IMG/VR virus record: IMGVR_UViG_3300031521_000039
Coordinates: 21,198-85,197 of that record
From: a virus
Reading direction: 5' to 3' (one strand)
Length of the DNA stretch: 64,000 nucleotides
The notes below the pieces were generated by a model. That model saw nothing but the letters and a program-made list of their open reading frames with translations. It did not search any database and was not told the DNA's origin. This document shows positions 5,514-39,122 of the stretch, piece after piece (within the stretch, counting starts at the first letter, position 1; each line of letters opens with the position of its first letter). Made by a program: the position numbers and the translations under genes.

Positions 5514-5545
5514 ATAAATTAAAAATAAAAGGAGTGTATTTAATT

Positions 5546-6664
5546 ATGCAAAATAAGATAATTGATTGTGGAATATATAAAATTATAAATAAGACAAATG
5601 GTAAACTTTATGTCGGTAGTAGTAAACATATTCATCAAAGATGGGACGAACATAAAGAAATGTTAGTAAATAATAGACATCATTCTATAAAACTTCAAAG
5701 AGCGTGGAATAAGTATGGCAAAGATAATTTTAAGTTTGATATAATTCAAGAGTGTAAAGAAAGTGAATTACTAGATGTTGAGCAAAGATGGATAGATGAA
5801 TTAGATTCATTTAAAAATGGTTATAACTGTACCAATGATACAAAAAATCCATTTAAAGAATATGATAAAACCAATAAAGAAGAAACCTTGGAAAAGTATC
5901 ATAATATATTACTAGAAATGAAGCAAGGAATTTACTTAATAATTACTGAAAAAGCATATTATGAAAGAATGTTAGAAAAAACAAATAAGAAAACATATGA
6001 CTATAAAAGAATAGCCACTATTATGTATTGGTTTAAAACTAATTTTGATATTACTAAATATATTTTATATATAGATATTAAGGGTAAAAAGACAACAAAT
6101 ATAAATATACAAATATGGGATATGAAACAAAACAAATGTTTATATGATTACATAGAAAAAACTAAAACAATATATTATATAGGAACTGTATTAAAAGGAA
6201 GAAGTGAAATAATAGACAATACATTTAAAATTGATAAAGAAAATCCATTTTATAAATATAATTACATAGGAAAAACCTTTATCTTAGACATGGACAATAT
6301 AACTTATTTAGCAAAAGATGATGTCAAATTATATTTTGAGTATATTTATAATAGAAATGCTTGTGAGTTGCATTTTAAAAGTAGCAAAGCTGGAAAAGTT
6401 ACATTTGATGACGAAATAAGAATGGAGTATACAAATTATATTGATATATTAAAAACTATTTATATAGAACAATATAAAAATGTAAAAATTATAATAAACG
6501 AAATATTACAAAATTTATATAATATTGTTTTAGATAAGAACCAAATAAAATCCGTAGAACAAAATTTAAAAAAATATAAAATATATGGGGAGTTAAAGAG
6601 TATCTGCAAAGAATACAATTATAAATATAAAACATCAAAAGGCACTATTGTTATCTATAATTAA
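5546..6664 (+). CDS. GIY-YIG homing endonuclease
   Basis: CGIYKI...LYVGSS...RWDEH...EQRWI...GYN. ATG at 5546 after AAGGAG. Confidence 0.85.
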   Translation: MQNKIIDCGIYKIINKTNGKLYVGSSKHIHQRWDEHKEMLVNNRHHSIKLQRAWNKYGKDNFKFDIIQECKESELLDVEQRWIDELDSFKNGYNCTNDTKNPFKEYDKTNKEETLEKYHNILLEMKQGIYLIITEKAYYERMLEKTNKKTYDYKRIATIMYWFKTNFDITKYILYIDIKGKKTTNINIQIWDMKQNKCLYDYIEKTKTIYYIGTVLKGRSEIIDNTFKIDKENPFYKYNYIGKTFILDMDNITYLAKDDVKLYFEYIYNRNACELHFKSSKAGKVTFDDEIRMEYTNYIDILKTIYIEQYKNVKIIINEILQNLYNIVLDKNQIKSVEQNLKKYKIYGELKSICKEYNYKYKTSKGTIVIYN

Positions 6665-25679: not shown

Positions 25680-25711
25680 ATTAAAAAAACTTAGAAAGGA
25701 TGCGATTTAAT

Positions 25712-26737
25712 ATGGGAAGACAAACTAATAAAGTATTATTAACTACACCAGAAGAAATCAATAAAATATTAATTAATAACAAGGAGTTAACACAAGATTT
25801 TATAAATTATTTAGAAACGACAGATCATTCGCCTAAGAGTATTGTAGTCTATAAAAATAATTTGAACATCTTTTTCGTGTATTTAATGCAAAAAGAAAAG
25901 AATATTGACTTTGTAGATATTAAAAAAAGACATATAATGAACTTTCAAAATTTTATGATTAAAGGAGGATTAAGTCCAGCTAGAATTCGTAATATCAAAA
26001 GTACGCTCTCCTCATTAGGCTTATTTATAGAAGCAATTTTAGATGAAGAAAAAAAATGGGAAAACTTTAGAAATATAATTAACAAAATTCCAAGTCCTAG
26101 TTTGTCTTCAACTAGAGAAAAAACAATATTGTCAGATGATGATTTAGAAAAACTACTAGATAAATTGGTTGAATTAAATAAAATACAAATTGCTTTATTT
26201 GTGGCAATGTCAGCATTTAGTGGGACTCGTAAAGCTGAGACGATTCAATATAAAAGAAGTTTCTTTACTGAGGATAATTGTAAAAATGGATTATATGTAA
26301 CTCCTGAGATCAGGACGAAAGGGCATGGTTCTAAGGGAAAGCCACTTGTAAAATATTGTCTTAAATCTAAAGTTGATAAATATTTAGATTTGTGGGACAT
26401 AGAAAGACAAAAACAAAATATCGAATTAGATGATTTATTTGTAACAAAGAGAAAAGGAGAATGGATACCTGCTTCAATAAGTACAGTAGATAGTTGGATG
26501 GGAAAATGTAGTGAAATATTAGGAGTTACAAGTTATGCTCATATGTATCGTCACTTTTTCATTTCTTATCTTCGAAGAGAGTCAGTTCCTATCGAAATAA
26601 TTAAGGATATTGTAGGTCATGAAGATGTATCTATGAGTCAAAAATATGACGATAATCCTAAAGAAGATGGGTTCTTAAAATATTTTTCAGAAGATGGAAT
26701 AAATAAAATTGAAGATAAAAAATTGTCTGATTTATAA
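25712..26737 (+). CDS. Tyrosine recombinase (XerC/D-like) with all catalytic residues
   Basis: SAM-like N-terminal domain; GTRKAE (R), RTKG (K), HMYRH, VGHED, QKYD (Y). Confidence 0.9.
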   Translation: MGRQTNKVLLTTPEEINKILINNKELTQDFINYLETTDHSPKSIVVYKNNLNIFFVYLMQKEKNIDFVDIKKRHIMNFQNFMIKGGLSPARIRNIKSTLSSLGLFIEAILDEEKKWENFRNIINKIPSPSLSSTREKTILSDDDLEKLLDKLVELNKIQIALFVAMSAFSGTRKAETIQYKRSFFTEDNCKNGLYVTPEIRTKGHGSKGKPLVKYCLKSKVDKYLDLWDIERQKQNIELDDLFVTKRKGEWIPASISTVDSWMGKCSEILGVTSYAHMYRHFFISYLRRESVPIEIIKDIVGHEDVSMSQKYDDNPKEDGFLKYFSEDGINKIEDKKLSDL

Positions 26738-27935: not shown

Positions 27936-28025
27936 CGCTTTTTTTATTGAAGAACGAATGGTTTATCAATATTTGAAAACTTTTGGCATTACTATCATAT
28001 GTATATTATTTGAATTCTATACATT

Positions 28026-33434: not shown

Positions 33435-33818
33435 TTAGAAATCGAGCCTAGTGATAGCCTTATTCTTAGAACGCATACTAGTTAAAATAAGATATAATTC
33501 ACTTGATTTTCTAATACCAGCAATCTTTTGACATATATCAGTCATTATTATTTGTTTTATACCAATTGAGTTTTCAAGAATGTCTCTTTCATGACAATAT
33601 ATTTGACATTGAACTCCATCTTCATTGAAATAGTAATATTTATCAACAATTTCCTTTTTATCTTTCTTAATTTCAGAGTTAAATTTTTTAAAAGTATTTG
33701 AAATATCAATAAGAACTTCATCAATATTTCTTATATCTCCATTTGGTAGATGAGTTACAATATTAATTTTAGCTAGAACATCTTGTACATGTATTTATTT
33801 TAAAACTAATGCTAACAT
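33435..33818 (-). pseudogene. Tape-measure-fragment-like ORF with in-frame TAA at codon 8
   Basis: ATG overlaps the dUTPase stop; MLALVLK* is followed by 119 open codons (DVLAKINIVTHLPNGDIRNIDEVLIDIS...ICQKIAGIRKSSELYLIL). Confidence 0.55.
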
Positions 33819-34975
33819 TATTTCACCCCCGTACTTGAATATCCACCCCTATTTACATCTCCAAGTTGTTCTACTATTTCAAATTCAACATTTTCCATAA
33901 CTCTATCAACTACTTCAAATTGTAAGATTCTATCATCGTAGTTTATTTCTCCATTTTTAGTACACCAAACCATTGCTCCCCATTCATCATCATTTCCTTG
34001 GAATTTATTATCTATTTGACCCACTGAATTAGTTAAAATAAATCCATAATTTTTAAACATTCCTGAACGTGGATAAACATTAGATTTCTTATTAGGTGGC
34101 ATCTTCATTGCAAATCCCAATTTAAAGAATAAAGTATCTCCAAAGCTATATTTACAAGGGAAAGTTGTTTCTACTCCATTCTTGAACACTCTACTTACTC
34201 TAAGATCCACTAAGTCTCCACCATCAATCTTTTCCATAGGTGTAATATTTTTATCTATGTATCTTACTTGTAATTTCATTGGCTCTAATTGTTCTTCATT
34301 TTTATTATTAAGAATAAGTCTTATAACATCATTTACAATATCACTATTGCCATTATAGAAAATATAAATAATTTTCTCTGCACAACCAGTAGTATAAGTT
34401 TCTATTTTTTGAATCATTTTCATATTTGATAAACTACTATTTTTTGTTCCTAAGTCATTGCATAATAAGTCCATAGTATTAAATTCTAAATCTAGCTTAT
34501 AGTTATCACCCACTTCTAAATTATCCATATTAGTATCTGATAACGGAACTTCAATTAATATTAATTTATCATTACCTAAACTTATTATATTTGTCTCGTA
34601 TATGTAATCAATTAAAAATTCCTTATTATTAATTTTAACAGTTATATTTGGAACACTTGGTGTTATATATTTTGTTTGAACTTTATCTATGATTTCTGCC
34701 TTCATATGTTCTAGTGTTTCCTTATTATTAAAATCCATTGTATATCCTTCTTCTATATCAATTGTTGATTTAATTTTATTATTCATTCTAAACTCTCCTT
34801 CTAATTCATCTATAATTTTTCTAATTTCTTCTTGATATAGACCGTTAAAAAACCATGAGTATTGAGAGTTTTCATTAGCTTGTCTATATATTATTTCAGC
34901 TTTGCAGATAGTTAATAATTCTGTTATTGATTTTTCATGATAATATTCTTTAAGTTTGTTTATATTGTCATTCAT
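33818..34975 (-). CDS. dut: Trimeric dUTPase with ~230-aa N-terminal extension
   Basis: GDLVDLR, PRSG, VGQIDNKFQG, RILQF, RGGYSSTG. Catalytic domain starts near 34279. Confidence 0.85.
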   Translation of the reverse strand: MNDNINKLKEYYHEKSITELLTICKAEIIYRQANENSQYSWFFNGLYQEEIRKIIDELEGEFRMNNKIKSTIDIEEGYTMDFNNKETLEHMKAEIIDKVQTKYITPSVPNITVKINNKEFLIDYIYETNIISLGNDKLILIEVPLSDTNMDNLEVGDNYKLDLEFNTMDLLCNDLGTKNSSLSNMKMIQKIETYTTGCAEKIIYIFYNGNSDIVNDVIRLILNNKNEEQLEPMKLQVRYIDKNITPMEKIDGGDLVDLRVSRVFKNGVETTFPCKYSFGDTLFFKLGFAMKMPPNKKSNVYPRSGMFKNYGFILTNSVGQIDNKFQGNDDEWGAMVWCTKNGEINYDDRILQFEVVDRVMENVEFEIVEQLGDVNRGGYSSTGVK

Positions 34976-35085
34976 TTTTAATCTCTCCTTTGATTTATTT
35001 CGTTTTGGCGACTGCACTTGTGAATAAGTGTATTGGTTAAATTGATAATTGGTAATACATGGTAAAATGTAGCAATTTAGCAGGT

Positions 35086-35502: not shown

Positions 35503-35973
35503 TTAATAATCTAATCCCTTTTTATAAATATGTTGATTTGAAGTTGCAAGTTTCACGTTATATTGTAAATTATTGTCACATCTTAATTCTTCTATATACC
35601 TTCCTGTTTTTATATAATCACATAATTCTAATTCAAATTTAGGACAGTCTTTTAAATCATATCTAGTAAATAACCATATTGGTTTATTTAATGTTTTTAA
35701 ATCTCTTAACATTTGTTCTAATTCGATATGATTTTGGTCATTAACTTCTCCTCCAAATATCTGTATTGAAGTTATCATATTATTAAAATCTTGAACTTTA
35801 GTTTTTATATTCTCAAAATACACCTTATTATATAAATCTCCCTCGTTAAAGTTCCAAGACTCAGGATTATGGCAGTTGGGGCAATGACCTAATTTGCCAT
35901 CACCCTTGCAACCTGCTACATATATTTCTAAGGCTCGTCTACTTAAAGTATATTGAGTGGCTAATACATTCAA
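35503..35973 (-). CDS. nrdG: Anaerobic RNR activase (radical SAM)
   Basis: GC-x8-CPNCHNP, GGE, DYIKTGRY, TSNQ; adjacent to nrdD. Confidence 0.88.
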   Translation of the reverse strand: MNVLATQYTLSRRALEIYVAGCKGDGKLGHCPNCHNPESWNFNEGDLYNKVYFENIKTKVQDFNNMITSIQIFGGEVNDQNHIELEQMLRDLKTLNKPIWLFTRYDLKDCPKFELELCDYIKTGRYIEELRCDNNLQYNVKLATSNQHIYKKGLDY

Positions 35974-37899
35974 TTATTTACTAGCCTTACCTATAGAATC
36001 TGAATTGTACATTTGTCTATTTGGAGCATCTTCTTCTCTTCTAACTTTGTGCCAGTTCTTAATATTAGTTAAGAAGCCAACTACTCTTGTATAAAAATCT
36101 TCAATTTCAGCACCACATATAGGACAAATATGGTCTGAACCTACTGTCATATGACCATTAGCACATTTTCTTAACATATAATTAATTGCAAAATATATTA
36201 CTCCTTGCTTTGCACATGTTTCAATTAATAACTTCATATCTTCTACATTGTCTAGTCTTTCATCACAAGATATATGCATTATTGAACCACCAGAAAAATA
36301 TTTATCAAATGTTCCTTGAAGTCTTATTCTATCTAGTAAATCTGCATTTACTATTAATGGTATAAATTGATTAGAATACAAGTTATATTCTGTTTGGTAC
36401 TTTAATAGTTGGTCTTTTGATGCTAATTTAATTGATACATTTTCTGCTGGAATTTGCTCACAATTATGAGGAGTTTTAAATCTCTTTTGCATTTTGTCAT
36501 TAACTGTATTTATTATATTAATGATTTCTAACCCTAATTGCATTCCATTCTCTGTTTTAATATCTTCTCCTAAATATGATATTGCTTCATTAAATCCATT
36601 AATTCCACAAGTTGAGTATTGAGTATTAATATCTACAAATCCTAAGTCATATAATGGGTGATTTCCATTATCTATTCTTTTTTGAACTATTTTTCTTTTT
36701 GTATGATTAATTTTTGCACACATCTCAACTAATAAAGCTAATTCTTTTTTAAATTCTTCTTTATCATTTTGATATTTTATTGATAATCTAGGTAAATTAA
36801 TTGTACAAACTCCTAAACTACCAATTTTACTTGAACCACTTCCAAAACTATTAAAATATTCATTAGTAGTTTCACTACGAAGTCTACAACAAGAAGATAA
36901 TGTGCTAGTCTTACCCATATACATGTTTATAAAAGCAAATTTCATATTCTTTTCTGCTATATAATTAACAAAACCTATATCTTGTAATTCTTGATTATCA
37001 TTTATACTAAAACAAGCTGTTGTAACAGGAAAAGTTATTGGGGTTCTTTCTTGTTCTCTATTCATAATATCTAAATATAAATTTTGCATCTTTTTAACTA
37101 TTTCTCTATCAGGATGACTACCATCTGGAAATATGTAATCATTAATCATCTTATCTAAGAATCTACCATCATAAATTGATACATTAGTAAATGGGGATTG
37201 ATTCCCTCTCATTGGTTGGTTTATTGTATATATAAATGATGTTAATTGTGAGTCAACATAGTTCCAACAATCTTCTTCTGTCATAAAAGAAAAATGTTCA
37301 TCTCTTTTATTTTCTATTATATTTTTAACATAGTAACTCATTACAACTAATAAATCTGCTAGTCCACAAGCTCCTAATGTTGAATTACTTGCAACTACTA
37401 CGAATTGTTCTAATTGAGATTTGAATGCAGTTAGATATTTAGGTGGTACACTATGTATTTTTTTAACCATACTAAGTCCATTCATCATAATGTCATATGT
37501 AGAATAATTATAACAATATGGTAATCCACCTCCTACGCCTATAAAATCATTTATGTAAATATCACCAACTAAATTCTTTTCTACAACTTCATTTGCAAAT
37601 CCTAGTCCATATAAAGCTTTAGATTCTTTCCACATCATATAGTAACTGTTTATCTTTTCAAAAGGTTTTTTCAATTCAGTTGAATAACTAATTACTGAAA
37701 CATCATCTACATTACTATTTTGATCTACAGATATATCTGTAGTAGTTTTTACTTTTTTACTAAAGAATCCTTTTGAAAATTTAGCTAAGTCTAACTGTGC
37801 CCCTATTCCATCCATATCAAATAACTCACTTGGATATTTACCTCTTAGATACATCATTAAATCATCGAATTCTCTTTCATAGCTTGTGTTAATATACAT
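35974..37899 (-). CDS. nrdD: Class III ribonucleotide reductase without ATP cone
   Basis: QSPFTN, TFPV, SSCCRL finger loop, PAEN, Zn motif and RVVGF glycyl-radical motif. Confidence 0.95.
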   Translation of the reverse strand: MYINTSYEREFDDLMMYLRGKYPSELFDMDGIGAQLDLAKFSKGFFSKKVKTTTDISVDQNSNVDDVSVISYSTELKKPFEKINSYYMMWKESKALYGLGFANEVVEKNLVGDIYINDFIGVGGGLPYCYNYSTYDIMMNGLSMVKKIHSVPPKYLTAFKSQLEQFVVVASNSTLGACGLADLLVVMSYYVKNIIENKRDEHFSFMTEEDCWNYVDSQLTSFIYTINQPMRGNQSPFTNVSIYDGRFLDKMINDYIFPDGSHPDREIVKKMQNLYLDIMNREQERTPITFPVTTACFSINDNQELQDIGFVNYIAEKNMKFAFINMYMGKTSTLSSCCRLRSETTNEYFNSFGSGSSKIGSLGVCTINLPRLSIKYQNDKEEFKKELALLVEMCAKINHTKRKIVQKRIDNGNHPLYDLGFVDINTQYSTCGINGFNEAISYLGEDIKTENGMQLGLEIINIINTVNDKMQKRFKTPHNCEQIPAENVSIKLASKDQLLKYQTEYNLYSNQFIPLIVNADLLDRIRLQGTFDKYFSGGSIMHISCDERLDNVEDMKLLIETCAKQGVIYFAINYMLRKCANGHMTVGSDHICPICGAEIEDFYTRVVGFLTNIKNWHKVRREEDAPNRQMYNSDSIGKASK

Positions 37900-37915
37900 T
37901 TATACATCTCTCCTT

Positions 37916-38137
37916 CTAGTTGTTTATTACTTCTTGTAAAGTTTTTAATTTATTATCAACCACTATTAATGGTAATGATAGCATGTCGTTTTCTTGTGCT
38001 AATTTTATATATTTATCTTGTTCTTCTTGTGGTAATTCATTTAATAATTTATATTCAAACTCCATACCTTTATTTGTTAGAACTGTTTTAGTCATGTTAC
38101 AAGCTGAACAATTTTGTTTTCCTATTAATAAAATCAT
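37916..38137 (-). CDS. nrdH: NrdH/glutaredoxin-like redoxin
   Basis: CSAC and SLPLI. Confidence 0.8.
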   Translation of the reverse strand: MILLIGKQNCSACNMTKTVLTNKGMEFEYKLLNELPQEEQDKYIKLAQENDMLSLPLIVVDNKLKTLQEVINN

Positions 38138-38317
38138 TTAAATTTCCTCCTTAATATAAAGTCCACATATGCAAATATCTTTCTCTCTTTTGTCTTTGCA
38201 AGGACATTTAGTATCCTCATTTTCAATAATCATACATGGACAATATTTGTTATTTGCTAATACTTTCATTGCTACTTCTTTTCTTTTTTTAATGTCTGGA
38301 TTTAATATCATTGACAT
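38138..38317 (-). CDS. Ferredoxin:thioredoxin reductase catalytic-subunit-like protein (59 aa, not in track)
   Basis: YCPC...KCPC...ICICGLY; stop abuts the redoxin ATG. Confidence 0.8.
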   Translation of the reverse strand: MSMILNPDIKKRKEVAMKVLANNKYCPCMIIENEDTKCPCKDKREKDICICGLYIKEEI

Positions 38318-38354: not shown

Positions 38355-39122
38355 TTATTTAAAATGACTTTCAGTAAGTAGATTATTACTTAGTAAAAAT
38401 GCTTTAAGCTCTACTTTAATTTCTTGGATATCATTATATTTACCCATATCAAATACAGGAATATCATATGCTTTAGCTATTCTAATTGCTTGTCCTGTAC
38501 CTCCACTACCTTTACCTTTCTTAGTCCAACATATAACAAATGCTGAAGGTGTTTCTAAATCTTGCCCTAATACTTGATGACTGTTTCTAGCTTGTAATTT
38601 TTGAGCACCTTGTTTTAAATTAAACCAATAAGGATGATATTTTTGTGCTATTTCAAAAGCTTTAGGATTAGATACTATTAACTTTGAATCAGAATTTTGA
38701 AATCCACTCCAAGGTAAATATATTTCTTTATCACCATTAACTTTATCACATCCATTTTCAAATGCTTTATCTGAACCGTCAGCACCACCAGAACGTAATT
38801 TGAATCCTTTGTTAGCAAAATATGTACCTAGACTTTCAAATAGTTCTAATATTTCTTGTGGTGTTTCTCTTGAACCTATTCCTGCATAATATATATTCAT
38901 TATATTATTATCGCCTAATGTATATTTATTGTCATTTGATATAATAGTAGGCATTTCATATGTTATTCCATTTGCTTCAAATCTTAGCATATGTGTGTTA
39001 ACATTTTTATTTGAAAACTCATCTAAAACTTTATCAGTTTGTTCTTGTTCCATTCCACTAGCTTCGTCAATAATTCCTTGTTGAGACTTAGCTCTTAGAC
39101 CTCTAACCATTTTATCATCCAT
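38355..39122 (-). CDS. SLOG/DprA-like protein with N-terminal terminase-motif-like extension
   Basis: YAGIGSRETP, LRSGGADGSD, ARNSHQVLG, GGTGQAIRIA. Confidence 0.75.
   Translation of the reverse strand: MDDKMVRGLRAKSQQGIIDEASGMEQEQTDKVLDEFSNKNVNTHMLRFEANGITYEMPTIISNDNKYTLGDNNIMNIYYAGIGSRETPQEILELFESLGTYFANKGFKLRSGGADGSDKAFENGCDKVNGDKEIYLPWSGFQNSDSKLIVSNPKAFEIAQKYHPYWFNLKQGAQKLQARNSHQVLGQDLETPSAFVICWTKKGKGSGGTGQAIRIAKAYDIPVFDMGKYNDIQEIKVELKAFLLSNNLLTESHFK

What the first reader, a model, noticed from the sequence alone, without database searches (positions are those of the whole stretch)
35503..38317. Self-contained ferredoxin-driven class III RNR chain: FTR-like + redoxin + NrdD + NrdG
Seen: an unannotated 59-aa ORF (CPC-x10-CPC-x8-CxCGLY) abuts a CSAC redoxin, followed by nrdD and nrdG. 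NrdD has SSCCR rather than the MGCR of formate-using enzymes, and has no ATP cone. Known: formate-dependent NrdDs (T4, E. coli) carry that Met. Redoxin-dependent NrdDs use a Cys pair, and Methanosarcina NrdD is fed by a ferredoxin:disulfide reductase via NrdH. Inference: the phage taps the clostridial ferredoxin pool for dNTP synthesis, without ATP-cone control, using an unusually minimal FTR.
Basis: partly seen in the sequence, partly recalled or inferred. Interest (0 to 1): 0.7.

Follow-up and report, generated by a model that had tools for sequence, protein, structure and literature searches.

The report
Phage anaerobic RNR with mini-FTR reductant chain
A large temperate phage of a low-GC anaerobe carries its oxygen-sensitive DNA-precursor enzyme next to a small thiol protein and a 59-residue, core-only relative of ferredoxin:thioredoxin reductase, a gene set that recurs in many phages and Clostridia and probably lets host ferredoxin electrons pay for phage DNA building blocks; no activity has been tested.

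Summary
Four tightly packed minus-strand genes encode:
- a 73-aa CSAC glutaredoxin-fold redoxin;
- a 641-aa NrdD that aligns end to end with Thermotoga maritima NrdD (SSCCR loop, no ATP cone);
- NrdG.

The small ORF is a real gene. Against a 95%-identical NrdD relative it shows 9 synonymous and 1 non-synonymous codon changes. Six Cys are invariant in 111 homologues. The AlphaFold model (pLDDT 95) matches only FTR/FDR structures.

Comparative evidence supports a chain of mini-FTR, then redoxin, then NrdD.
- 99 of 132 mini-FTR loci also hold Grx, NrdD and NrdG, in several gene orders. These include Clostridium phage c-st and chromosomal operons of Clostridia.
- 87 of 88 linked NrdDs have the Cys-Cys loop.
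- Among 79 NrdD-anchored viral loci, 20 of 22 with mini-FTR also have Grx, against 28 of 57 without (p = 6e-4).
- Natural fusions join the mini-FTR to thioredoxin, glutaredoxin, NrdG and NrdD.

The ferredoxin donor and the clostridial host remain inferred. The 85-kb record encodes no ferredoxin, so the chain is not fully self-contained. This is a new variant of the Methanosarcina ferredoxin–FDR–NrdH–NrdD scheme. The scan has already noted the same module on many other genomes.

The parts
38138..38317 (-). mini-FTR: a 59-aa core-only homologue of the ferredoxin:thioredoxin reductase catalytic subunit. By alignment to FTR, the predicted [4Fe-4S] ligands are C26, C38, C40 and C49, and the predicted redox-active pair is C28/C51. 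Ile50 stands where canonical FTR has His.
   Evidence: Pfam FeThRed_B 25.9 bits, above the 22-bit cut-off. A profile of 111 homologues hits 4TPU, 7PWE and FTRc chains. AF2 pLDDT is 95.3. Foldseek's top 12 are all FTR/FDR. VIA Z is 6.1/6.0/5.9 to 1DJ7/7PWE/4TPU over all 59 residues, with the next best at 2.1. Six Cys are invariant. Purifying selection: 9 synonymous to 1 non-synonymous.
37916..38137 (-). Small glutaredoxin-fold redoxin, NrdH-like, 73 aa, with active site CSAC at residues 10-13 and a cis-Pro at P56. It is the presumed carrier between the mini-FTR and NrdD.
   Evidence: Pfam Glutaredoxin 27.2 bits, above 22.9. Weak NrdH and YruB hits fall below their cut-offs. 54 of 60 syntenic homologues hit Pfam Glutaredoxin. 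A profile of these redoxins finds NrdH structures 1R7H, 4FIW, 1H75 and 4F2I among the top PDB hits. A GGAGG lies 8 nt before its ATG, inside the mini-FTR gene.
35974..37899 (-). NrdD, the class III ribonucleoside-triphosphate reductase, of the T. maritima type. It has the bottom-face Cys129, the finger-loop Cys337-Cys338-Arg339, Glu481, the glycyl-radical motif RVVGF (Gly608) and a C-terminal Cys/His zinc site. It has no ATP cone.
   Evidence: NF006127 561.7 bits, above 545. PDB 4COI/4U3E at E 7e-116, aligned 2-636 against 2-649. The named residues are invariant in a 15-sequence alignment. There is no PF03477 hit.
35503..35973 (-). NrdG, the radical-SAM activase of NrdD (156 aa, TTG start). 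Its cluster motif has unusual spacing, C22-x8-C31-x2-C34.
   Evidence: Pfam Fer4_12 49 bits. TIGR02826 at 67.5 bits and TIGR02491 at 59 bits are below their cut-offs. The N-terminus matches the NrdG part of the L131 fusion protein. Cys spacing was surveyed.

Best explanation
The four genes form one translationally coupled operon inside the phage's replication and nucleotide-metabolism block. They supply dNTPs under anoxia with their own reductant relay.
1. NrdG uses SAM to install the glycyl radical on NrdD. This step is established chemistry for the family.
2. Each NTP reduction oxidises the NrdD Cys pair (Cys129 and Cys337, next to the thiyl Cys338). This is inferred from the T. maritima / N. 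bacilliformis type.
3. The CSAC redoxin re-reduces that disulfide (inferred).
4. The 59-aa mini-FTR re-reduces the redoxin. It would use a [4Fe-4S] cluster next to the C28/C51 disulfide to join two one-electron inputs into one two-electron disulfide reduction, as in FTR and Methanosarcina FDR (inferred).
5. The electrons come from a host low-potential carrier, most likely ferredoxin. This is inferred and is the weakest step.

The sequence-level anatomy, family memberships, synteny and fusions are shown. All electron-transfer steps are inferred.
For: - The mini-FTR is an FTR-family member by HMM, by profile and by fold, and all six cluster and disulfide Cys are invariant in 111 homologues.
- 99 of 132 mini-FTR-anchored loci hold Grx, NrdD and NrdG within 6 kb, in at least four gene orders. 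These include Clostridium phage c-st CST074-077 and chromosomal operons flanked by housekeeping genes in Clostridia MAGs.
- 87 of 88 distinct NrdDs beside a mini-FTR have the bottom Cys, the CCR loop and the Glu. The single MGCR-type case lacks a Grx.
- In 79 NrdD-anchored viral loci, mini-FTR presence predicts Grx presence: 20 of 22 against 28 of 57, Fisher p=6e-4. This fits an FTR that acts through the redoxin.
- Natural fusions exist: Trx::mini-FTR, mini-FTR::Grx, NrdG::mini-FTR and ATP-cone-NrdD::mini-FTR. A solved Grx::FDR fusion is 7PWE.
- T. maritima NrdD, the closest solved relative, is inactive with formate and needs a protein larger than 10 kDa. Its SCCR cysteines are essential (PMC4493059).
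- Precedent: a ferredoxin:disulfide reductase plus NrdH feeds Methanosarcina barkeri NrdD. I know this only from citations (Wei et al. 2015, cited in PMC9176816, and PMC6262447).
- About 2,700 cultured-phage records with a formate-type NrdD relative belong to host genera that do not appear among the 55 records holding a mini-FTR. This comparison is confounded by host taxonomy.
Against: - No biochemical data exist for any mini-FTR.
- No ferredoxin or flavodoxin is encoded in the record or beside any related module, so the donor is a guess from homology.
- The window's protein has Ile where FTR has the catalytically helpful His, has x9 in place of the canonical x16 spacing, and lacks the N- and C-terminal parts, the variable subunit and the rubredoxin domain of characterised enzymes.
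- Only 28% of viral T. maritima-type NrdD loci carry a mini-FTR, and the closest NrdD relatives (62-66% identity) have Grx but no mini-FTR. The mini-FTR is therefore dispensable.
- crAss001 carries a mini-FTR but no NrdD anywhere in its genome, so the protein is not tied only to a phage RNR.
- In the commonest gene order the mini-FTR abuts NrdG, and it is fused to NrdG about as often as to Trx/Grx.
Confidence: 0.6

Rival explanations
1. The mini-FTR serves the activation step and not turnover. It would work on or with NrdG, or on NrdD's C-terminal Cys site, for example by keeping cysteines reduced or passing electrons so that the glycyl radical can be installed. The Grx would then act on NrdD independently.
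For: In the commonest gene order the mini-FTR directly follows, and often overlaps, nrdG. At least 12 protein clusters and three fetched loci (L066, L131, L202) are NrdG::mini-FTR fusions. From my own knowledge, thioredoxin has been reported to assist activation of E. coli NrdD in vitro; I did not check this here.
Against: - The disulfide pair C28/C51 is invariant, which fits a disulfide reductase better than a plain electron carrier.
- Mini-FTR presence tracks Grx presence and the Cys-Cys type of NrdD.
- In the window the mini-FTR abuts the Grx, and NrdG lies at the other end of the operon.
- Trx/Grx::mini-FTR fusions are about as common as NrdG fusions.
- Fusion to a neighbouring gene can arise simply from loss of a stop codon.
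Confidence: 0.15
2. The mini-FTR reduces the NrdD disulfide directly, or reduces general host thioredoxins. The adjacent Grx would be a parallel, independent reductant, so there is no obligatory three-step relay.
For: - Some loci have mini-FTR, NrdD and NrdG without a detectable Grx (L043, L044, L065, L156).
- ATP-cone-NrdD::mini-FTR fusions exist (P0186, P0187).
- crAss001 has a mini-FTR but no NrdD and no adjacent redoxin.
- The mini-FTR is also found fused to dUTPase, ThyX, SHMT and thymidine kinase.
Against: 20 of 22 NrdD-anchored loci with a mini-FTR also have a Grx. All characterised FTR/FDR enzymes act on thioredoxin-fold substrates. Trx/Grx fusions exist, as does the solved 7PWE fusion. 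Several of the Grx-less loci are cut at a contig end.
Confidence: 0.12
3. The small protein is a Cys-rich zinc-binding or structural peptide that only resembles FTR. The RNR would then be fed by host thioredoxin systems or by formate.
For: The Pfam score is only 3.9 bits above the cut-off, and Foldseek E-values are modest at 4.5e-3 to 8e-2. The protein is very short. The catalytic His is absent in the window's copy.
Against: All six FTR cysteines are invariant with FTR-like order. The profile search and an independent structure search return only FTR/FDR chains well above background. The family consensus keeps CHC. T. maritima-type NrdD does not use formate.
Confidence: 0.05

Closest known systems
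Methanosarcina barkeri class III RNR system: ferredoxin, ferredoxin:disulfide reductase (FDR), NrdH, NrdD3 (Wei et al. 2015, Biochemistry 54:7019; known here only through citations)
   Same: An FTR-family Fe-S disulfide reductase gene and a small thioredoxin-fold redoxin gene sit with nrdD and nrdG. The proposed electron path is the same. The FDR structure 4TPU is the best sequence and fold match of the mini-FTR.
   Different: The archaeal FDR has about 170 aa and carries a rubredoxin domain, whereas this protein is the 59-aa core alone. The NrdD here is the bacterial T. maritima type and not the methanogen NrdD3. The system is carried by a phage. No activity has been shown.
[quoted passage not shown]
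   Same: Same CPC...CPC...CxC signature and the same fold: Z 6.1, rmsd 2.6 A over 59 residues to 1DJ7, TM-score 0.6-0.75 normalised to the query.
   Different: FTRc has about 110 aa, has x16 between the CPC motifs, has His in CHC, and pairs obligately with a variable subunit. Here there is x9, Ile, and no PF02941 gene.
Desulfotalea psychrophila glutaredoxin::FDR fusion protein (PDB 7PWE)
   Same: The FTR-like core is directly coupled to a glutaredoxin-fold partner. Z is 6.0 over 59 residues, and the profile E-value is 1.7e-4.
   Different: That protein is one polypeptide. In the window the two are separate, translationally coupled genes. I did not examine whether 7PWE has any RNR context.
Thermotoga maritima NrdD (4COI, 4U3E) and Neisseria bacilliformis NrdD (thioredoxin-dependent 'NrdD2')
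   Same: End-to-end alignment at E 7e-116. Both have no ATP cone, the SCCR motif, the bottom Cys, the Glu, and the Gly-radical and zinc sites. The T. maritima enzyme is formate-independent and needs a protein reductant.
   Different: The physiological reductant of the T. maritima enzyme is unknown, and Pfam's FeThRed_B model finds no match in the T. maritima control genome. The Neisseria enzyme uses NADPH, thioredoxin reductase and thioredoxin.
Clostridium phage c-st CST074-CST077 and Bacteroides phage crAss001 gp5
   Same: c-st has glutaredoxin, NrdG, NrdD and a 63-aa protein that its annotators already noted as weakly FTR-like. crAss001 gp5 is annotated as a putative FTR and is 47% identical to the window's protein.
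   Different: The gene order in c-st differs, and its NrdD is 978 aa with an insertion at the Cys-Cys motif. crAss001 has no NrdD at all, and its paper treats gp5 as an auxiliary metabolic gene unrelated to replication.

Membership tests
FTR catalytic subunit family (Pfam FeThRed_B, PF02943) | Score above Pfam's gathering threshold | tested here: met
   25.9 bits against 22, residues 17-58 on model positions 37-89 of 106. 22.7 bits in the six-frame search of the phage's own record.
FTR catalytic subunit family (Pfam FeThRed_B, PF02943) | Six-Cys signature CPC...CPC...CxC (four cluster ligands plus the redox-active pair) | tested here: met
   C26-P-C28, C38-P-C40 and C49-I-C51. All six are invariant in 111 homologues. 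They align to the CPC/CPC/CHC motifs of 2PUK and 4TPU.
FTR catalytic subunit family (Pfam FeThRed_B, PF02943) | Canonical spacing and the His between the last two Cys (CHC) | tested here: not met
   Spacing is x9 where the canonical loop is longer, and Ile50 replaces His. The family consensus keeps CHC. M. acetivorans FDR has CYC in the same place.
FTR catalytic subunit family (Pfam FeThRed_B, PF02943) | FTR fold | tested here: met
   AF2 pLDDT 95.3. Foldseek ranks 1-12 are all FTR/FDR. VIA Z is 6.1/6.0/5.9 over 58-59 residues, with the next best at 2.1.
FTR catalytic subunit family (Pfam FeThRed_B, PF02943) | Heterodimer with a variable subunit (FeThRed_A) | tested here: not met
   No PF02941 match in the 85-kb record at E<=0.1. 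The record is only about 34% complete.
FTR catalytic subunit family (Pfam FeThRed_B, PF02943) | [4Fe-4S] cluster and ferredoxin-dependent disulfide reduction | not testable with these tools
   Needs anaerobic purification, spectroscopy and an activity assay.
Methanosarcina-type ferredoxin:disulfide reductase (FDR, 4TPU) | FTR-like core plus a C-terminal rubredoxin domain | tested here: not met
   The 59-aa protein aligns only to residues 20-94 of the 169-173-residue chain. There is no rubredoxin part.
Redoxin-dependent class III RNR (T. maritima / N. bacilliformis type, 'NrdD2') | Adjacent Cys pair on the finger loop (SCCR), bottom-face Cys and a conserved Glu | tested here: met
   C337-C338-R339, C129 and E481 align to ASCCR, PYCFAY and NIEQVPAE of 4COI. 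They are invariant in A4.
Redoxin-dependent class III RNR (T. maritima / N. bacilliformis type, 'NrdD2') | Full-length similarity to a characterised member, the glycyl-radical motif and the zinc site | tested here: met
   E 7e-116 over residues 2-636. NF006127 561.7 bits, above 545. RVVGF with G608, and C579/C592/C595, are invariant.
Redoxin-dependent class III RNR (T. maritima / N. bacilliformis type, 'NrdD2') | Turnover with a thiol redoxin and not with formate | not testable with these tools
   Enzyme assay needed. The T. maritima enzyme behaves this way (PMC4493059).
Formate-dependent class III RNR (E. coli / T4 type, 'NrdD1') | Met two residues before the thiyl Cys (MGCR) | tested here: not met
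   The window has SSCCR. For comparison, the only MGCR-type NrdD found beside a mini-FTR was in L119.
NrdH-redoxin (TIGR02194 / NF007657) | Score above the curated cut-off | tested here: not met
   26 bits against 85.75, and 19 against 131. The protein is above cut-off only for the general Pfam Glutaredoxin model. A profile of the syntenic redoxins does rank NrdH structures near the top.
NrdG activase (TIGR02826 / TIGR02491; radical SAM) | Score above the curated cut-off and the CX3CX2C cluster motif | tested here: not met
   67.5 against 151.7, and 59.2 against 126.1. The motif is Cx8Cx2C. Pfam Fer4_12 is met at 49 bits against 22, and the gene abuts nrdD, so the functional assignment as NrdG stands.

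The most novel reading that the evidence does not exclude
The 55-65-aa mini-FTRs are an uncharacterised, very widespread class of stand-alone [4Fe-4S] disulfide reductases, with at least 700 clusters at 50% identity. They would be the missing physiological reductase for T. maritima-type class III RNRs in strict anaerobes and their phages. Together with a small redoxin they would form a portable ferredoxin-to-dNTP module that phages gain, lose, rearrange and fuse, giving bacteria a third reductant scheme for anaerobic ribonucleotide reduction.
Probability: 0.5. Interest if true: 0.7.

Novelty: new variant of a known kind. Interest (0 to 1): 0.55.

Why it matters
How redoxin-type class III RNRs are re-reduced in strict anaerobes is only partly known. 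The T. maritima enzyme needs an unidentified protein reductant (PMC4493059). The conserved mini-FTR plus Grx module names concrete candidates that can be expressed and assayed.

The mini-FTR would also define the smallest known FTR-type catalytic unit: 59 residues, with no variable subunit and no rubredoxin domain. That makes it useful for understanding how a [4Fe-4S] cluster reduces disulfides.

For phage biology, it would show that phages of gut and other anaerobes bring their own link from the host's low-potential electron pool to DNA-precursor synthesis, independent of formate and NADPH. The gene is often missed by Pfam (no hit for the L116 copy) or labelled as an unrelated auxiliary gene (crAss001).

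Tried and rejected
The genomic contexts of the 15 closest mini-FTR homologues (P0002-P0016) could not be read. The search for related loci was used in its place.
- blastn of the region against cultured phages found nothing.
- Key primary papers were not held in the library: Wei 2014 PNAS, Wei 2015 Biochemistry and Prakash 2018 JBC. What I say about NrdD2/NrdD3 and FDR comes from citing papers and from my own knowledge.
- Literature searches for the mini-FTR with an anaerobic RNR in phages, for FeThRed/PF02943, and for the 7PWE protein returned nothing relevant.
- I searched for a phage-encoded donor (ferredoxin motif, Fer4, flavodoxin) or an FTR variable subunit. None is in the 85-kb record, and no ferredoxin-motif ORF lies in about 210 related loci.
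- Promoter and terminator scans gave no more sites than shuffled sequence, so operon boundaries are not defined. No tRNAs were found in the window.
- A first tblastn with the window's Grx found a redoxin in only 5 loci. This was a sensitivity artefact that iterated HMMs corrected.
- I first took '87 of 88 NrdDs are Cys-Cys type' as strong specificity. I then weakened that reading, because Cys-Cys NrdDs are also common in phages without a mini-FTR, for example Vibrio phage Va1 and crAss-like cr116_1.
- A zinc-peptide reading and a formate-dependent reading were considered and rated unlikely (see rivals).
Full report
**What is in the window**

Bases 35503-38317 carry four co-directional minus-strand ORFs.
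- A 59-aa ORF lies at 38138-38317.
- A 73-aa ORF lies at 37916-38137.
- A 641-aa ORF lies at 35974-37899.
- A 156-aa ORF lies at 35503-35973.

The genes are packed for coupled translation. The stop of the first ORF abuts the ATG of the second, and a GGAGG lies 8 nt upstream inside the first gene. Sixteen bases with AAGGAG precede nrdD. The nrdD stop abuts the TTG start of nrdG. Consensus promoter and terminator scans give no more sites than shuffled sequence, so operon ends are undefined.

The block sits in a minus-strand replication and nucleotide-metabolism region. That region also holds a DnaE-like polymerase, a RecJ-like nuclease, two topoisomerase II subunits, an ATP-dependent ligase, a methyltransferase and a dUTPase-like protein.

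The window is part of an 85,197-bp IMG/VR virus record that CheckV rates as about 34% complete. GC content is about 26%. An integrase-like gene lies at 25700-26737. The polymerase is closest to large Clostridioides difficile phages (46% identity) and to SPbeta-like Bacillus phages. A temperate phage of a low-GC Firmicute, possibly a clostridial one, is plausible but inferred.

**Checking the observation**

The 59-aa protein has Cys at positions 26, 28, 38, 40, 49 and 51.

It passes Pfam's FeThRed_B threshold at 25.9 against 22 bits. The redoxin passes Pfam Glutaredoxin and has CSAC. It falls far below the curated cut-offs for NrdH and YruB.

The NrdD passes the NF006127 equivalog at 561.7 against 545 bits. 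It has no ATP-cone hit and carries SSCCR. NrdG matches Fer4_12 and matches NrdG models below their cut-offs. Its cluster motif has the unusual spacing Cx8Cx2C.

The small ORF is a real gene. Against the related contig L003, whose NrdD is 95% identical, it differs at 10 codons, 9 of them synonymously. The Grx shows 8 synonymous and 9 non-synonymous differences.

**What the small protein is**

A profile of 111 homologues (A3) has eight invariant columns, among them all six Cys.

Against PDB sequences the profile finds only FTR-family proteins. These are M. acetivorans FDR 4TPU (E 5e-5), the Desulfotalea Grx::FDR fusion 7PWE, and cyanobacterial and plant FTRc. The three Cys motifs align in register.

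The AlphaFold2 model built with this alignment has a mean pLDDT of 95.3. Foldseek's twelve best PDB matches are all FTR/FDR chains, with TM-scores of 0.60-0.75 normalised to the query. An independent all-against-representatives structural search gives Z 6.1, 6.0 and 5.9 to 1DJ7, 7PWE and 4TPU over 58-59 of 59 residues. The next best chain scores Z 2.1.

By alignment, C26, C38, C40 and C49 would ligate the [4Fe-4S] cluster, and C28/C51 would be the redox-active disulfide. This assignment uses the established roles of the FTR cysteines, which I take from my own knowledge.

The protein differs from characterised enzymes in five ways.
- It lacks the roughly 35 N-terminal and 17 C-terminal residues of FTRc.
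- It has a shorter loop between the CPC motifs.
- It has Ile in place of the His of CHC. The family consensus keeps His, and the active archaeal FDR has Tyr there.
- No variable-subunit gene is present.
- It has no rubredoxin domain.

The family is large and mostly unnamed. 1709 clusters at 50% identity match at E<=1e-3 and 717 at E<=1e-10, and most are 55-130 aa. In the ESM Atlas, 29 of the 30 nearest clusters are FeThRed_B proteins of about 61 aa, mostly viral.

**What the NrdD is**

It aligns from residue 2 to 636 with T. maritima NrdD (E 7e-116). Conserved features are the bottom-face Cys (C129), the SCCR motif (C337, C338, R339), the Glu of the N-x-E-Q-x-P-A-E motif (E481), the glycyl-radical motif (G608) and the C-terminal zinc-site residues. 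All are invariant in a 15-sequence alignment at 26-65% identity.

The T. maritima enzyme showed no activity with formate. The missing ATP cone is a trait of the whole clade.

**Comparative genomics**

Two searches of public collections were used, one starting from the mini-FTR and one starting from NrdD.

*Loci found through the mini-FTR*
- Scans of viral and genome collections gave 129 loci. With crAss001, c-st and the window this makes 132.
- Iterated HMM searches over all ORFs found all four families within 6 kb in 99 of 132 loci.
- The redoxin calls were checked. 54 of 60 hit Pfam Glutaredoxin, and their profile ranks NrdH structures near the top.

*Gene orders*
- Most viral contigs have Grx(CPxC)-NrdD-NrdG-miniFTR.
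- About 20 Clostridia/Eubacteriales MAGs have NrdD-Grx(CPMC)-NrdG-miniFTR. One lies on a 766-kb contig flanked by SufBD, a cation-efflux gene and ABC-transporter genes, so it is a chromosomal operon.
- Clostridium phage c-st has Grx-NrdG-NrdD-miniFTR. Its 2005 annotation already noted weak FTR similarity.
- The window and four near-identical contigs (L003-L006) have miniFTR-Grx-NrdD-NrdG.

*NrdD type*
- 87 of 88 distinct NrdDs beside a mini-FTR have the Cys-Cys loop, the bottom Cys and the Glu, across several clades only 23-33% identical to the window's enzyme.
- The one MGCR-type case has no Grx.
- This specificity is weaker than it looks, because Cys-Cys NrdDs are also common in phages without a mini-FTR.

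*Loci found through NrdD*
- This is a control with a different anchor: 79 viral loci with a T. maritima-type NrdD.
- 22 have a mini-FTR, and 20 of those also have a Grx.
- 57 lack a mini-FTR, and 28 of those have a Grx. Fisher's exact test gives p=6e-4.
- Phages therefore come in three tiers: NrdDG alone, Grx plus NrdDG, and mini-FTR plus Grx plus NrdDG.
- The mini-FTR almost never appears without the redoxin, as expected if it acts upstream of it.
- The window's closest NrdD relatives (62-66% identity) have a CS[AR]C Grx but no mini-FTR. The mini-FTR is therefore a lineage-specific add-on, placed here on the opposite side from most phages.

*Cultured phages*
- About 2,700 records hold relatives of a formate-type NrdD (Escherichia, Klebsiella, Salmonella, Vibrio and others).
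- The 55 records with a mini-FTR are from Bacteroides, Prevotella, Clostridium and uncultured phages.
- This contrast is confounded by host lifestyle.

**Fusions**

A search for longer proteins with the mini-FTR profile found several kinds of natural fusion.
- NrdG-like radical-SAM::mini-FTR, in at least 12 clusters. It also occurs in loci L066, L131 and L202.
- Thioredoxin::mini-FTR in several clusters, and one mini-FTR::glutaredoxin.
- Two ATP-cone-NrdD::mini-FTR proteins.
- Fusions to dUTPase, ThyX, SHMT, thymidine kinase, NUDIX and a DUF4406-like domain.

Pfam scans of ten of these proteins found the partner domain in all ten and FeThRed_B as well in seven of them. The mini-FTR part of P0213, P0231 and P0246 was not detected at E<=0.001.

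These fusions, and the solved Grx::FDR fusion 7PWE, tie the mini-FTR both to thioredoxin-fold partners and to the RNR and dNTP pathway. They do not say which partner is primary.

**Most likely mechanism (confidence about 0.6)**

1. NrdG makes the glycyl radical on NrdD.
2. NTP reduction oxidises the NrdD Cys pair.
3. The CSAC redoxin reduces that pair.
4. The mini-FTR reduces the redoxin through its cluster-adjacent disulfide.
5. Host ferredoxin, or another low-potential carrier, feeds the cluster.

Family memberships, synteny and fusions are shown. Every electron-transfer step is inferred.

The donor is the weakest point. No ferredoxin, flavodoxin or FTR variable subunit is encoded in the record, and no ferredoxin-motif ORF lies in about 210 related loci.

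Two facts limit the claim. Bacteroides phage crAss001 has a mini-FTR but no NrdD in its whole genome. Only about a quarter of related phage NrdD loci carry a mini-FTR.

The rivals are a role in NrdG-dependent activation (0.15), direct reduction of NrdD or of general host thioredoxins (0.12), and a non-Fe-S Cys-rich peptide (0.05).

**Comparison with what is known, and novelty**

The closest known system is the Methanosarcina barkeri relay of ferredoxin, FDR, NrdH and NrdD3. The primary paper was not available, and I know it from citations.

The window's system works like that relay but differs in three respects.
- The reductase is the bare 59-aa core.
- The NrdD is the bacterial T. maritima type.
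- The carrier is a phage.

I found no paper that links a mini-FTR to an anaerobic RNR in phages or bacteria. The crAss001 paper lists its copy as an auxiliary metabolic gene unrelated to replication.

I class the finding as a new variant of a known kind. The scan itself has already noted the same module on many other genomes: 111 notes in at least 90 genomes, including a reported NrdD-Grx-FTR triple fusion. I confirmed pairwise fusions but did not examine that protein.

**Limits**

- Several primary papers were not held.
- Loci were taken from best-80 lists, so the proportions are samples, not censuses.
- ORFs were called mechanically from the first start codon.
- Some loci are cut at contig ends.

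Noticed in passing
window 35503-35973 (-): The radical-SAM cluster motif of NrdG has the unusual spacing Cx8Cx2C. NrdGs in related loci range from Cx3 to Cx12, and about half show no recognisable CxnCx2C motif in the first 110 residues.
   Followed up: partly
window 38355-39122 (-): The 255-aa gene directly upstream of the mini-FTR has only weak DprA/SLOG-like Pfam hits (E 0.006 and 0.025). Other first-stage notes read a 'terminase peptide' into its N-terminus. I did not examine that.
   Followed up: no
window 33818-35017 (-): A 399-aa protein with a weak C-terminal dUTPase-like match (E 0.097) lies downstream of the RNR module. Relatives of it follow the module in 16 related loci, and dUTPase::mini-FTR fusion proteins exist (P0274).
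   Followed up: partly
L002 4993-7929; L048 3275-6001; L070 2660-5506; L084 2588-5440: Several NrdDs beside mini-FTRs are 900-980 aa long. They carry large insertions exactly at catalytic cysteines: after the Cys-Cys motif in c-st and L048, and at the bottom-face Cys in L070 and L084. The insertions look like inteins.
   Followed up: no
P0186, P0187 (710-711 aa): These are ATP-cone plus NrdD-body plus C-terminal mini-FTR fusions. The NRDD match stops at model position about 507 of 562, so the glycyl-radical tail seems to be replaced by the mini-FTR. The tail may be encoded separately.
   Followed up: no
L191 3344-3835; L195 10409-10939; L199 10476-10979; L201 10427-10936; P0185: A mini-FTR is fused to a C-terminal domain of about 100 aa; P0185 carries PF14359, which I take to be a DUF4406-type nucleoside 2-deoxyribosyltransferase-like domain. 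In three of the four fetched copies (L195, L199, L201) the first motif is CCC where others have CPC.
   Followed up: no
L001 (Bacteroides phage crAss001, 2271-2468): The crAss001 mini-FTR (gp5) sits alone inside the tRNA array. The 102.7-kb genome has no NrdD, so its target must be a host protein or something other than a phage RNR.
   Followed up: partly
L116 5998-6168: The chromosomal mini-FTR of a Clostridia MAG gets no Pfam hit at E<=0.001. Members of this family are therefore easily left unannotated.
   Followed up: no
window 5534-6664 (+); strand switch near 28000: A GIY-YIG/homing-endonuclease-like ORF lies within the plus-strand, presumably structural, block. GC skew and coding strand flip at about 28 kb.
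   Followed up: no
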